A DNA stretch of 64,000 bases, taken from Schmidtea nova. Its lineage: Eukaryota. Below are positions 53,691 to 59,600 of this stretch, one piece after another (the stretch's first letter is position 1; the number at the start of each line of letters is the position of its first letter). Both the position numbers and the translations under genes were made by a program. Where the stretch lies: NCBI GenBank assembly GCA_044892505.1, contig CM097882.1, forward strand, positions 241,056,001-241,120,000, in the 5' to 3' direction. The notes beneath the pieces are model-generated. The model was not told the origin of the DNA, did no database searches, and saw only the letters and a program-made list of their open reading frames with translations.

Positions 53691-56600
53691 TCTTTTTCCA
53701 TCACGTATCGGTGCTGATATTTTTGCATATGTTCGCGTAACGCTTGGTCCTTGCCGAATATTTCTATTTCCCTTTCTTTCAAATACTTGCTGATCAATCC
53801 CAACTCCTCATCTTCGAGTTGATCTTTCCTTAGTTCGCTGAAATCCAAATCCTCCGCTATTAATGCACATATTTTTAGAGCATTCAGGTTCACCAATTCT
53901 GGAAATGTAAACCTTGACATGCAATCTGCGTTCGCATTTGCTTTTCCTGCTTTAAACTTTATGAATGGCGAGTATTCCTGTAACTGCATCGCCCAACGCA
54001 TCAATCTACTTGATGATTCTTTGTGTTGACCTAACCATACCAATGGTTGATGATCTGTCGTGATATATATTTCATGACCCCATAATAGGTACTTGAAATG
54101 CTTGATTGCCAATATTATCGCATAGGCTTCTCTTTCCGTGACTGAGTAATTCCTTTCATGCTTCCTGAACGTTCGACTGTAGTATCCAATTACTCTTTCC
54201 TTGCCTTCCTCATCGAATTGGCCTAGTACTGCTCCTGCTGCATATCCACTTGCGTCTGTTGCCAACAGAAATGGCTTCTTAAAGTCTGGATGGACCAATA
54301 TTGGTGCTGTAATCAGCTTGTCTCGTAATGTTTCAAATGCTGCTTGCTGTTCTCCTCCCCATACAAACGACACATCTTGTCTTACCAATTCTTGCATTGG
54401 CTTTGATATTCCTGCATAGTCCTTGATAAACTTTCGATAATATCCACACAATCCCAAAAATTCTTGTATTTGAGTCACTGTCTTTGGTGGTGGACATTCT
54501 TTGACTTTTTCGATATTCCTTGGATCTGGTTCTTTTCCTTTTGCTGATACAATATGACCTAAGAATGTCACTTTTTCTTTTGCCCAATCGCACTTTGACG
54601 GCTTTAATTTCAGTTTCCACTGTCTCAATTTCACGAACACATTTCTGATGTCTTGCAAGTGATCTTCGAATGTTGCGGAGTAGATCAATAGATCGTCGAT
54701 ATACACCATGCATTGTTTTATGCCATGTGTTACGAAATTCATGCATCTCTGGAATGATGCTGGCGCGTTTGTTAACCCAAACGGCATTTTCTTGAATTGG
54801 TACAGATCTCGTCCGATTGTAAATGCTGTCTTTTCTTTATCCTCGTCTTTCATTTTGATCTGCCAATATCCGCTTTTTAAATCCAGTGACGTGAAATAAG
54901 CTGCTCCTTGTAACGTCAATAACATTTCATTTATGTCTGGCAGTGGGTACGTATCTCTTTTCGTAACTGCGTTCAATCGTCTGTAATCGATACAGAATCT
55001 CTGAGTTCCATCCTTCTTTTTCACCATCACCACCGGGAATTGCCAGGGTGAGCAACTAGGTTCGATGACCTCTGCATCTAACATCTTTTGTACCTCTTCT
55101 TCTGCCACTGCTTTTTGAGCTTCTGCCAATTTGTATGGTCGTAATGCGATTGGCGTTTCGTCCGTCAACGGTATCGTATGTAATGTTACATCGCATGTTC
55201 CTAAATCTAGATCCGATGCTGCGAATATATCTTTATATTCCATCAACAGTTTCTGTAACTGTTCTTTTTGTCGTTCGTCTAACAACACACTGTCAATTTT
55301 CCATGGTAATTCGCCTTTGCCTTTCTCATTCTTGTCTGGTATTTCGATTTCGGACATGGGTGTCAATTTACCCAAATTCTCATTCTCGTATATTATCTTG
55401 TCTTCTTCGTCGAAGTTTACCAGATTAATCGGTATCTCACCTTCTTGGTTTATCGTGACCAATTCTCTTGCCATTGGTAATTCTTTCTTTGCTTCGAACT
55501 TCTTACTGGGTTCGAATATCATGTCTCCCTTTATTGTCGAATCGATCTTGACATAGCACATCATTTCATGTCTCGCTGGTACTACTATTTGTTCCGCACT
55601 TGCCACTTTAACTTTCATTCTGCAGATTTTCACTGTTCTATCTTTTAGTTTCATTGCTCCTAGATCGATTACGATCTCTTTGAACAGGTCTGGCATCAGG
55701 TCAGTTCCAATAATACATGGTACACTCAGCGATGGTATTACAGCGATGTACGTGTTGATCTCTGCACCTCGATGCTTAATTTTTACAAACCATCTTCCGG
55801 CTACTTCTACTGTCTCTTGACTGCACGCGATTACATGTACGTTCGTCTTCTCGATTTCTCCTTGATTTTTCTCGGGTATATAATTGATGTCGATTGCCGA
55901 AATATTCGCGCCTGTATCGATCATAGCTTCGATTTCTCTTCCGTTTATTTCTACGGTTGTTGTTAAAATCGGTCCCATATTTGTGGACCTAACCGCTATC
56001 GTATGCGTGTCTTCTAACGAGTTTACACTTCCACCTCGTTTTACTTTGCATCCTTCTGGAATTATCGGGTATATACTTGTCATCGGCATCATCTGCATCA
56101 TGTTCGGCTTCGCTTTGTATATCGGTTCGTTATACATTGACTGAGGTGGAGCGCTGTATCTCCAATTCTCAACTGCACTCTTTTCGGTATACTGTGGAAT
56201 CTGGTTTATATTCGCTTGTCCTCCTTGATTGTCATCGTCATCGTCATCATTACTTGAATCATCTTGCGTTCGATATCCTCTCACTCTTTCCCATAATCCT
56301 TTCTTTTCCTTCTTCAGTTGTCGTCTTGCTTGTTCATCTTGCATTATCTTTTTGAATTTCCTTCCGACATCTTCGTTTGTTCCTTTCATTTTTGCAAGTA
56401 TCTTCAACAACCTCTTTATTCGATGTATGTCTTTTGAGTGTCCGTGTAACACCATCGTTTTCGCAAGGAATGGTAGAAACCCTACTACCATTTTCCAATT
56501 CACTTTCTTCTCTCTCTTGTAGATATCGAAACACGCTAACATTTGCGTTATTATCACTCTGACGATTTGGATTATCAATATCACTCCCAGTATTCCAGCC

Positions 56601-59600
56601 ATCATTTTTCCGAATATCAGGAATCTTCCCCACATTGCCTTCATCATATTCTCTGTGGCTTTCTTGAAATGTGCCGGTGACAACAACAGTTCGTAATTCG
56701 GTCCTTCTCGATAATTCGTTCCTCCCGTTATCGTTACGATATTTGACAGTAATGCTTCTCTTCTTGCCGGGAATAATATATTCTGCCTTGCTGCTTCTAA
56801 ATCCTTTGGACTATAGATTCCGTTGTTTGAGACATCTACGTCGCTGAACTGTCTATCCTTTGACAACTGCATTAGCTCAAATTCTCTTGGTGCTAATACT
56901 TCGGTTCTTCCTGGGAACATTACCCATTTGCCATCTGGCTTCTGATAAAGTGGTCCGTACGCATTACTACAGTTGAACGGATTTGGTTCAAACCCTGGTG
57001 GATTGATGATTCTCGTCACCGGTTGAACATATCGTACTTTTCCTTTATAATCGATTTCTAGTTCGTTTGTACATTGTCCAGGTTTCAACTGCGTTGTTGC
57101 TGCTAGCGATGCGTGTGTCTTTTCGCAAATGTATACATACATTGCCTCTCCAACCACTCTTCCGAAATGTCCTTCTCTCAGTGGTAATAATGGCATCGCG
57201 CTATCTGGATTCGTAATCGCTACGGCCAACTTTGTCTTCAATATTTCTCGATTCAGTATACAATCATTGTTTATCAGATCATAGTACACTTTTTGCAATG
57301 AGGCTTGTCCTCTATGGAATAAGAAATCCATTTTATTATTCACATACAAGTGTAGCTTGATATCCATTGTGTCGATCTTGGGTTTCGCATTCGGCACTTC
57401 TTGTTTCGACACATATATTCCTGGATAGTTTGTTTCGTATACTGTTGTACTGCACTTAAGGGTTGCTTTCCCTTTTATGAATCTCATTCCCACATCCTGA
57501 TTTGTGGTTATCAACACTGTTGGTGTAGTTCTCATCTCTATCCGTTTCTCTTTATGATCTGGTCTCAATTGTCTTTTATTCTCTAAAGCCTCTTTGAGAT
57601 GTTTTGCTCTAGCCTTGTCATCATCGTCCTCTTCTTGAAACGTTTTTCCTTGTATTTCGTCGAACTTTGCTCCTTGTAGCAGTTGTAATTGACATTCGTT
57701 CACTTTTGGTTTGTACACCAAAGTTGACATTCCCGTTTGACACATGCTTCTGTCAATCTTACACATGGATAACGTTTTCATTTCTCCTGTGGTCGGTTCG
57801 AAGAATGCTTCGTAACTTTTCAATTCGACTATGTACGTATCCATCACCACTAAGTTGGTTGCAGGTGCTCCGAATATCGGGTAGGTTTCTCCTTGACAAT
57901 ATCCTTCTCCTCCCGTAATTCGTCCTGCTACATAATACGTCTGCTGTAACATCATTCCTGGTTTTCCTTTTATCTTGATTTTATCTCTTGTTGTTACTTC
58001 TCCGTGTTTGAACAATGCTTCGCAGTCTTCTCCTTGCAACACGATTGGTTCTCTTTCTGTTCCTGGCATGACAATTGCTGAATAATGTCCTCTCCCACAA
58101 TAGAATGCGAATCTCGTCTTCTGTACCTTGCATTCATTCACTATTGTCTTTATTAGTTCTGCCTCTTGATACACGTGATACCATTGTTCCTTTTTGATCT
58201 CTCTTAACTCTACTGGAGTTGCATCTTTGCATTGCTCCGTACCTCTCAATGAGTACTTTTCTCCTAACTTCATTTGATCACAATCAAATACTTCAAATGT
58301 TGTTACACCCTCTGTGCTTAACAACCATACTAACATCATCATGATTATCGAGTTCAAATTCAACGTCGATCTTCCGTTTCCTTGCATCGTTTGTCTATTC
58401 TCCATTTCCCTCAATACTCCTTCAAGTTTCTTTCTCATCACGTTAGACCCTTCTTTTGTCTGGTTCTCTTTTATGAACTTTTCCCATCCTCCTTTCCTGA
58501 GGATATATGGTTCAATTTCTTTCTCGATAATCATCGCCGTATTTTTAATATGTCTTCCCATCGGACTTGACTTCGGACTTCCTCGGCTTAGCGTTAGCAA
58601 GTTGTATATCGTATACGAGATTGCTACTAGATATTTGCTGTCCGTTTCTGCTCCGTTAAGTAGCTTTTTTATTAACATCGTGGTTCCCTGCCAATCTAGA
58701 TGATTCGATTTTGTTTTCGCTTTTATCAATTCTGGCATAATCGGTGCTATTGCATTGTGTAGCATCCTTGCCTTTGTACTGGGTTCGTTTATTCGCCACA
58801 AATTCTTTAATTCCGGGTCAATTATTGCTAACACATCCATTATCGTTTTGGTGAGCCATTCTTCTCCTTGGCAGACTTGATTCTCTTCTTTTCCTCTGAT
58901 TTCTGCGATTTTATCTAATTTCTTCAAGCAAATCTCCCATTGCTCTTGTCTCCTTTCTTCCCTTGTCTTTGGGATTGTTGTTGCTGGATCTATCTTTGGT
59001 CTTCCTCTTGGTCGTTTTTCCATTCCAGTTCCGGTTTCTACAAATCTCGTTGCTCTTCCTGTTTCTTCCGTAACATCTCTTCCTTCGTTTGCTCGTTGTT
59101 CTAACCATCTTTCCATTTCCTGAGTAAACTGTGGTTGTTCTTGCTCGTCTTCTGAATCGTTTACCATTTCTATGACTACCTCCTGTTCCACTCCTTGATC
59201 GTCGATTTCTGCTGGTGACGTTATTGGCATCTCTATTATTCTGTCAAAAATATTCGCCGTTGGTTTTTGAGTCAACTTTGTTAATTCTTCTATCGCTTCA
59301 TCACTGTCTGTTAGTATCTCATCGACGTCATACGCTTCTGGCGGTGTTCTCTCTCTCGTTTTTATTGGTGTTGTCCTTGCTTGTCCCGAACTTGTTCCTG
59401 TGGTCATTGTTGACTTCATCGGACTTGGTGTACTCATGCTTCCTTTCGCTTTCTTTTCCTCTTTAAACTTCAGTGGTTGACCCACTATCTGTGCCACTGT
59501 TAGCGTATTCATTAGATCCAATTGCACTGGTGTCAGCCAGATTTCTAAACTATTATCCAACGATCGTCCTTGATGTTGCAGGTGGAATGGTAGTTCATAC

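What the first reader, a model, noticed from the sequence alone, without database searches (positions are those of the whole stretch)
56440..58360. Chuvirus-type glycoprotein embedded in frame between Gag and protease
Seen: signal peptide, then FEVFDC...C...YQEAELIKTIVNECKVQKTRFAFYCGRGHYSAIV...C...G...GYCQG...YVNNKMDF...DLINNDCILNREIL...GEAMYVYIC...CTNEL...C...WGRFLIFGKMMAGILGVILII(TM). Known: this Cys and motif spacing matches Chuviridae glycoproteins as I recall them, and such glycoproteins were captured as env by mosquito Bel/Pao (Anakin) elements. Unusual here: it is in a Gypsy element and lies upstream of PR in the same ORF, so Gag-Env-Pol must be separated by signal peptidase plus the element's protease, as in RNA-virus polyproteins (inference).
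Basis: partly seen in the sequence, partly recalled or inferred. Interest (0 to 1): 0.9.

Follow-up and report, generated by a model that had tools for sequence, protein, structure and literature searches.

The report
Burro-type retrotransposon with herpes-like fusogen
This is a virus-like jumping gene of an already described kind, whose single giant protein carries a viral membrane-fusion protein in its middle; the copies in this genome show that the fusion protein is strongly conserved as the element multiplies, was swapped between lineages, and comes with a second, apparently undescribed surface protein.

Summary
Window 56,450-58,372 (-) encodes a chuvirus-family class III fusogen (Pfam E 1e-73; model matches chuvirus G and herpes gB). 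It lies upstream of the protease in a 29.4-kb Ty3/Gypsy element with 3.3-kb LTRs. This copy's Gag is in another frame, but 12 of 18 sister copies read Gag-G-PR-RT without a stop, and 20 of 69 have one 5,076-5,091-aa frame. The layout is published: Burro elements of planarians (PMC6431247) and Gag-Env-Pol elements with gB-type Env in flatworms (PMC13524379). It is not Anakin. Three things I did not find in print: (1) G is under purifying selection as strong as PR or RT (shared changes 20 non-synonymous to 177 synonymous); (2) a sister lineage took over exactly the G cassette and then multiplied to 40 or more copies; (3) the polyprotein ends in a membrane-anchored protein with four fibronectin-III repeats. 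Most likely G works as an envelope during copying; infection is inferred, not shown. Verdict: new member of a known kind.

The parts
58298..58372 (-). Internal signal-like hydrophobic segment ahead of G (cleavage site predicted, not shown)
   Evidence: Hydropathy 1.95; similar segment in sister families and most long relatives
56633..58297 (-). Ectodomain of class III fusion glycoprotein (PF24664), 14 conserved Cys, one N-glycan sequon, no furin motif
56450..56632 (-). TM anchor of G followed by a conserved hydrophobic/amphipathic helix
   Evidence: Hydropathy 2.89 and 1.91; 0 non-synonymous to 34 synonymous shared changes
55961..56449 (-). Linker (predicted cytoplasmic) joining G to the protease
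   Evidence: Same frame; less constrained, 15/57
55688..55960 (-). Aspartic protease
   Evidence: Pfam RVP E 5e-9
54548..55024 (-). Reverse transcriptase core, Ty3/Gypsy type
53972..54286 (-). RNase H
53163..53651 (-). Integrase (H2C2 and core); in a separate frame in this copy only
51027..52319 (-). Ankyrin repeats after integrase
48894..50330 (-). Signal-like segment, then four Cys-bearing fibronectin type III-like repeats (50,037-50,273; 49,560-49,808; 49,275-49,508; 48,894-49,136) with a second hydrophobic segment after the first
   Evidence: model pLDDT 85.8; the 50 listed VIA matches (Z 6.5-8.2) are FN3 domains or FN3-type receptor domains; Foldseek no E<=0.001, weak rows nearly all FN3
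48585..48659 (-). C-terminal TM anchor of the polyprotein
   Evidence: Hydropathy 2.93
58466..58870 (-). Probable BCL2-like domain directly before the signal segment
   Evidence: Weak and transitive: relatives P0006 Bcl-2 E 0.00096, L074 E 0.035; profile to P0006 prob 93%; profile to Bcl-xL E 0.2
59480..61840 (-). Region between Gag and BCL2-like domain, with three stretches that look ubiquitin-like by eye
   Evidence: No Pfam hit here; ubiquitin E 0.0047 at this position in relative L074
61864..63636 (-). Gag frame with three CCHC knuckles (first Met at about 63,273); separate frame in this copy only
46423..47835 (-). Accessory TRAF gene (RING, zinc fingers, MATH); split by a stop in this copy, 476 aa stop-to-stop in 5 of 6 others
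45173..46333 (-). Accessory coiled-coil ORF, 386 aa
44575..45099 (-). Accessory 174-aa ORF with signal-like start, coiled coil and TM
41064..44372 (-). 3' LTR, 3,309 bp, TG...CA, holding two ORFs (199 and 211 aa). The 5' LTR lies beyond the window (L031 about 4,154-7,463); 3 differences between them; 4-bp target duplication; element about 29.4 kb
   Evidence: primer site matches host tRNA-Pro(TGG)

Best explanation
It is the env region of a young, high-copy Burro-type Ty3/Gypsy element. Shown: one ORF of about 5,085 aa reads Gag - linker with probable BCL2-like domain - signal - class III fusogen - TM - linker - PR - RT - RH - IN - ankyrin - FN3 membrane protein. Inferred: the internal signal threads G into the ER, signal peptidase frees its N-terminus, the TM returns the chain to the cytosol, and Pol stays tied to the G tail until the element's own protease cuts it. 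Particles budding through a G-bearing membrane would so carry Pol with them, and G then fuses the particle with a membrane of another cell, so that new insertions pass through an enveloped step. Odds: identity and class III fold 0.95; G function needed for copying 0.85; signal peptidase plus protease processing 0.8; entry into another cell rather than a cycle inside one cell about 0.6.
For: Fold: chuvirus G E 3e-40, TM 0.53-0.64; herpes gB E 2e-13; VIA Z 9.3, rmsd 7.8, 406 aligned, followed by other gB, rhabdovirus G and thogotovirus GP. Selection: in 60 copies picked by protease and absent from the G-ranked list, ectodomain changes shared by 4 or more copies are 20 non-synonymous to 177 synonymous, single-copy changes 199 to 142 (Fisher p 8.5e-31); PR 6 to 27. 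pN/pS 0.037 for G in the first 20 of them, RT 0.024 in 18 others. G present (95% or more) in 52 of 60; the 8 others end at 8 different places, so no amplified env-less lineage was seen. Copies differ by pS 0.13-0.19 but paired LTRs are 99.8-100% alike in 7 of 7: many source lineages, recent insertions. Swap: L099 is 0.934 like the window in the ectodomain and 0.72-0.73 outside it, where it is 0.83 like L097; the piece across the junction has 40 scored matches at 97-100%. Two hydrophobic segments flank the ectodomain.
Against: No expression, particle, cleavage or fusion data. Selection on G would also arise if G served a cycle inside one cell or had to fold for Pol to be released. A single ORF implies equal amounts of Gag, Env and Pol, which is hard to square with capsid assembly unless Gag is also made another way (untested). 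A third hydrophobic stretch after the TM (1.91) would put PR in the lumen if it crossed the membrane; I read it as a surface helix. Whole-chain TM-scores to gB are only 0.33-0.39 and pTM is 0.66. The window's own copy is broken.
Confidence: 0.6

Rival explanations
1. G is needed for copying but inside one cell: particles bud into ER or endosomes and fuse back, or G mainly anchors Pol to the membrane where Gag assembles. No cell-to-cell infection.
For: After signal cleavage Pol is joined to G, not to Gag (topology inferred), which alone would make G essential in cis. TM and following helix have 0 shared non-synonymous changes of 34.
Against: A mere anchor would not need an ectodomain as constrained as RT, nor explain a swap that takes the whole ectodomain or a second surface protein. 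Back-fusion inside the cell is not excluded by these.
Confidence: 0.28
2. G is kept for the host's benefit (receptor blocking, cell fusion) or only hitchhikes because it sits in the pol frame.
For: Burro1 is reported to help host stem cells through an IAP domain (cited in PMC13465017, passages; the primary paper was not held). Being in the pol frame protects G from stops and frameshifts.
Against: Hitchhiking does not remove amino-acid changes. Host selection would act on inserted copies, yet single-copy changes include many replacements and 14 stops in the ectodomain: copies decay after insertion.
Confidence: 0.08
3. The in-frame fusion is an accident or artefact: a chuvirus endogenous fragment inserted into one Gypsy copy, or a mis-assembly.
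For: The window copy has Gag in another frame. Chuvirus G fragments near LTR elements are common in arthropods (PMC10084718, part 2 read).
Against: 69 scored copies at 99% identity, three sister families and divergent public relatives with G before PR.
Confidence: 0.01

Closest known systems
Burro/GYPSM1 giant Gypsy elements of dugesiid planarians (Arkhipova and Yushenova 2019, PMC6431247, section 7 read)
   Same: About 30 kb, one ORF near 5,000 aa, Gag with three CCHC, env in frame between a BCL2-like domain and PR with hits to mononegavirus glycoproteins, ankyrin repeats, MATH/TRAF, coiled-coil and RING accessory genes.
   Different: TRAF is a separate ORF downstream of the polyprotein (inside ORF1 in S. 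mediterranea, upstream in D. tigrina); no BIR found; that section linked the env to gypsy Env and baculovirus/paramyxovirus fusion proteins, while the model here is class III; it does not mention FN3 repeats. No Burro reference sequence was compared directly.
GAG-ENV-POL errantiviruses with HSV/gB-type ENV (Chary and Hayashi, eLife 2026, PMC13524379; abstract, passages, Discussion part 1, section 11, supplement rows read)
   Same: Ty3/gypsy, gene order Gag-Env-Pol, gB-like Env related to Chuviridae G; six S. mediterranea elements listed; the two Smed Env rows printed resemble P0001 by eye.
   Different: Its main text has no hit for 'fibronectin', 'polyprotein', 'purifying' or 'fused' and holds env recombination to be infrequent and mostly ancient; here a swap at 93% identity is recent. 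It gives no primer tRNA for the Smed elements; here tRNA-Pro.
Chuviridae / Jingchuvirales and xinmovirus glycoprotein (PF24664)
   Same: Same family, cysteine pattern and fold; Tacheng tick virus 4 and Wufeng shrew chuvirus 2 G are among the hits.
   Different: Viral G are stand-alone 650-aa proteins about 20-28% identical; element G are 26-48% identical and form one side of a branch.
Anakin (mosquito BEL/Pao with chuvirus-like env; PMC7642597 seen as listing and as cited in PMC13524379)
   Same: LTR element carrying a PF24664 glycoprotein.
   Different: BEL/Pao, env after integrase (P0059: DUF5641 then G); on the other side of the G tree.
Herpesvirus gB, rhabdovirus G, thogotovirus GP (class III fusogens)
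   Same: Fold; weak profile match in the central helix (E 0.005).
   Different: 9-14% identity; no trigger or partner protein known here.

Membership tests
Ty3/Gypsy (Metaviridae) | PR-RT-RH-IN order with Ty3-type RT | tested here: met
   (Ty3 RT E 8e-89, next caulimovirus 2e-59, retroviruses 2e-35). No RT tree with named elements was built.
Ty3/Gypsy (Metaviridae) | TG...CA LTRs, 4-6 bp target duplication, tRNA primer site | tested here: met
   (4-bp duplication in 3 of 3 copies with both outer junctions read)
Burro | About 30 kb, single ORF near 5,000 aa | tested here: met
   29.4 kb; 20 of 69 copies 5,076-5,091 aa
Burro | Env in frame between Gag and PR | tested here: met
   12 of 18 copies; not in the window copy itself
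Burro | Ankyrin, MATH/TRAF, coiled-coil and RING cargo | tested here: met
Burro | BCL2-like domain before env; ubiquitin-like and dUTPase-like domains | tested here: inconclusive
   BCL2 weak and transitive; no hit for ubiquitin-like or dUTPase-like stretches
Burro | BIR domain | tested here: inconclusive
   No BIR hit in the ORFs scanned; only a RING in the leader ORF; not all short ORFs were scanned
Burro | Sequence kinship to named Burro1-4 and planarian host | not testable with these tools
   No reference sequence on hand; host group inferred from element type only
PF24664 Monjiviricetes fusion glycoprotein | Score above the curated cut-off; conserved cysteines | tested here: met
   248.5 bits against 27
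Class III fusogen | gB/G-like fold | tested here: met
   (predicted monomer)
Class III fusogen | Trimer and membrane fusion activity | not testable with these tools
   A trimer exceeds the complex tool's size limit; no assay
Gypsy Env / baculovirus F (class I type) | F-type fold, furin site | tested here: inconclusive
   No furin motif; the fold searches point to class III; an unlisted family is not formally excluded
Anakin (BEL/Pao) | BEL/Pao pol with env after integrase | tested here: not met
   Env precedes PR; no BEL-type Pfam family at E<=0.1; Ty3-like RT
Fibronectin type III domain (C-terminal repeats) | Seven-strand FN3 sandwich | tested here: met
   One repeat modelled with 19 rows; VIA Z 6.5-8.2, rmsd 2.4-3.3, 63-76 aligned. 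Z is middling; sequence searches are not significant

The most novel reading that the evidence does not exclude
These elements are infectious giant endogenous viruses with a two-part envelope cut from one polyprotein: a class III fusogen in the middle and an FN3 membrane protein at the end that acts as attachment protein or trigger (as herpes gB needs partners), with the fusogen exchanged as a cassette between lineages under selection. A signal-like segment plus C-terminal hydrophobic segment after integrase is seen in 6 of 6 public relatives that extend that far, so a second surface protein may mark the whole clade.
Probability: 0.25. Interest if true: 0.78.

Novelty: new member of a known kind. 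Interest (0 to 1): 0.45.

Why it matters
The headline (chuvirus-like Env in frame between Gag and Pol of a Gypsy element) is in print. What stays open there is whether such Env proteins work and how gB-type Env enters cells without herpes partner proteins (PMC13524379 section 11 calls the entry mechanism unknown). This family gives population evidence that G is needed for copying, a recent natural swap that marks the functional edges of the cassette, and a candidate partner protein. With many young copies in what is probably a planarian, it makes the question testable by proteomics, RNAi and cell-fusion assays.

Tried and rejected
Word-based protein search with G found nothing among 7,610 candidates of near length; HMMER on representatives did. 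Locus scans: 4 loci in metagenomes, none in viral contigs or prokaryote genomes. P0007 is labelled Flavobacteriaceae in NCBI; I take it as binning contamination, not tested. No class I or II fusogen is listed among the top fold matches. BCL2-like region: no phmmer or Atlas hit alone. FN3 profile: no significant PDB sequence hit, Atlas score 0.81 is a lead only, and the four-repeat profile did not detect the C-terminal modules of P0005, P0007, P0014, P0152, L073 or L075, so their kinship to these repeats rests on position, hydropathy and a motif seen by eye. Expression: no RNA holder listed; four runs of unknown kind cover the element, but contig depth cannot rank genes and no splice-like joint was evident among those shown. 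The careful tree did not finish; only the quick tree is used, 67 of 120 rows, unrooted, no one-clade test. No earlier scan findings. Papers not held: the 2026 Burro1 paper and the 2018 genome paper; they may already mention the FN3 module. Literature searches for the three additions: and the word search; figure labels and most supplements of PMC13524379 were not seen. No complex prediction was run. Rejected: programmed frameshift between Gag and G (copies read through); host co-option of G as main cause; artefact.
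Full report
1. What is in the window. The - strand holds three long frames: 61,864-63,636 (Gag, three CCHC knuckles), 53,651-61,900 (about 1,150 aa of linker, the glycoprotein, PR, RT, RNase H) and 48,399-53,807 (integrase, ankyrin repeats, a C-terminal membrane module). The glycoprotein (P0001, 56,450-58,372) matches PF24664 at E 1.3e-73. The 3' LTR is 41,064-44,372; its partner lies just past the window end, with 3 differences in 3,309 bp, TG...CA ends and a 4-bp target duplication, giving about 29.4 kb. 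Six bases after the 5' LTR is a 19-base match to the 3' end of a host tRNA-Pro(TGG).

2. Is it one frame? Not in this copy, but in the family. The 69 scored copies are 99% identical in G; 20 of them lie in a stop-free frame of 5,076-5,091 aa (best 69 of 3,785 candidates, so biased to intact ones). Of 18 copies fetched, 12 read CCHC-G-PR-RT without a stop and 6 break at scattered places. Three copies of sister families (75% in PR) also read Gag through RT in one frame. So the window's two frame changes are damage, not programmed signals.

3. What G is. A model built on 98 sequences has pLDDT 88.3, pTM 0.66. Best viral matches are chuvirus and xinmovirus G (E 3e-40, TM up to 0.64). Best solved matches are herpesvirus gB (E 2e-13, TM 0.33-0.39). 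An aligner independent of Foldseek gives gB Z 9.3 (rmsd 7.8, 406 aligned), then other gB, rhabdovirus G and thogotovirus GP. A sequence profile also reaches gB weakly (E 0.005). It is a class III fusogen. There is one N-glycan sequon and no furin motif. The closest relatives are other elements: of the 10 long hits looked up, 8 have G ahead of one or more proteases and 2 end before it; metagenome contig L075 shows Gag-G-PR-RT-RH-IN in one 2,693-aa frame. In a quick unrooted tree (67 of 120 rows) the 19 element-type G form one side of a branch (SH-aLRT 92; 99 with one long row), apart from two named chuvirus G and a BEL-type env. This does not show who gave the gene to whom.

4. Selection. Among 60 copies chosen by protease match and absent from the G-ranked list (60 of 61 such), G is at least 95% present in 52, and the 8 others end at 8 different points. 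Ectodomain changes shared by 4 or more copies: 20 non-synonymous, 177 synonymous; private changes: 199 (14 stops) and 142; p 8.5e-31. TM plus helix 0 and 34; linker 15 and 57; PR 6 and 27. Against the window copy, pN/pS is 0.037 for G, 0.024 for RT, 0.089 for the Gag-G linker and 0.21 for the C-terminal module (one shared reference, so pairs are not independent; the last from 6 copies). Paired LTRs are 99.8-100% alike in 7 of 7 copies over the part compared. So the family spreads from many source lineages that keep G, and copies decay once inserted. The same logic was used for reinfection by HERV-K (recalled).

5. A natural swap. L099 is 0.934 identical to the window copy across the ectodomain but 0.72-0.73 on both sides, where it is 0.83 like L097. 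The junctions fall at the end of the signal segment and just after the helix that follows the TM. A 501-base piece across the 5' junction has 40 scored matches at 97-100% (of 498 candidates), so the recombinant multiplied.

6. A second surface protein. After the ankyrin region come a signal-like segment, four repeats with invariant C, W, C, C, and a TM. Sister families have the same repeats, duplicated in L100. One repeat modelled on 19 rows (pLDDT 85.8) matches FN3-type domains throughout the top 50 (Z 6.5-8.2); Foldseek and sequence searches agree only weakly. Six of 6 public relatives that extend past integrase have a signal-like and a C-terminal hydrophobic segment there, though the repeat profile does not detect them. 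Its role is unknown; attachment, trigger or immune decoy are guesses, and a third hydrophobic segment leaves the topology open.

7. Mechanism. Shown: domain order, single frame, fold class, selection, swap. Inferred: the internal signal (which could double as the tail anchor of the probable BCL2-like domain) sends G into the ER; signal peptidase cuts; the TM returns the chain; Pol hangs on the G tail until PR cuts it, as in alphavirus and flavivirus polyproteins (recalled). This makes G necessary in cis and predicts enveloped particles. Entry into another cell is my best reading (about 0.6); a cycle inside one cell is the main rival (about 0.28). Equal Gag:Env:Pol output is an unsolved problem; Tf1 solves it by degrading Pol (recalled).

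8. Prior art. [quoted passage not shown] PMC13524379 (abstract, passages, Discussion part 1, section 11, supplement rows) reports GAG-ENV-POL elements with gB-type ENV in flatworms, nematodes and bryozoans and ties that ENV to Chuviridae G. A bioRxiv paper (10.64898/2026.08.30.748148, passages) also finds chuvirus G class III. Also seen: PMC10084718 (part 2), PMC12440569 (part 1), passages of PMC13465017, PMC11410931, PMC8532177. I found no mention of selection, recent swaps or FN3 in the searches listed under Tried and rejected, but two key Burro papers were not held and figures were not seen. The host is probably a planarian; that is inferred from the element type only.

9. Verdict. Real, correctly recognised, already known in kind. 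A new Burro-type family with useful added evidence. Interest 0.45; the two-part envelope reading has probability about 0.25 and would deserve 0.78.

Noticed in passing
window 48,399-50,330 (-); L098, L100, L102: Four FN3-like repeats plus TM end the polyprotein; in L100 the module is duplicated (7 repeats, two TM). Three hydrophobic segments in the window family leave the topology unresolved.
   Followed up: partly
L099 about 6,100-8,100 (G000:C3, 28.50 Mb): Sister lineage carries the window family's G cassette (93% alike, flanks 72-73%), junctions near window 58,300 and 56,400; 40 scored matches across the 5' junction.
   Followed up: yes
L031 3,146-3,616 (-), 5' leader: 152-aa ORF with a C-terminal RING (zf-C3HC4_3 E 4.5e-9), resembling the IAP-type RING reported for Burro1; no BIR seen.
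   Followed up: partly
window 44,575-45,099 (-): 174-aa ORF with signal-like start, coiled coil and TM, kept in 6 of 6 copies read; weak GP41 hit (E 0.003, below cut-off) probably from composition. A possible third membrane protein.
   Followed up: partly
window 41,454-42,053 and 42,205-42,840 (-): Two ORFs inside the LTR, present in both LTRs of most copies read; no family hit. LTRs differ 7-21% between copies while the internal region differs 4-5%.
   Followed up: no
P0152, P0003, P0005, P0015, L073: Relatives carry two to seven aspartic-protease-like domains in one polyprotein; L073 also has a further signal/TM pair before RT and a downstream exonuclease ORF (RNase_T E 1e-5).
   Followed up: no
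G000:C1 459.61-459.66 Mb (L069): Tandem array of tRNA-Pro(TGG) genes with 308-bp spacing; 1,037 pattern matches in the genome.
   Followed up: no
window 17,971-20,189, 25,290-28,871, 38,069-42,900 flank: Fragments of other LTR elements; the giant element appears inserted into one of them (integrase-like frame at 40,118-40,720).
   Followed up: no
L054 (G000:C2, 31.0 Mb): A copy with a full main frame lacks the TRAF gene and part of the coiled-coil ORF, so that cargo can be lost.
   Followed up: no
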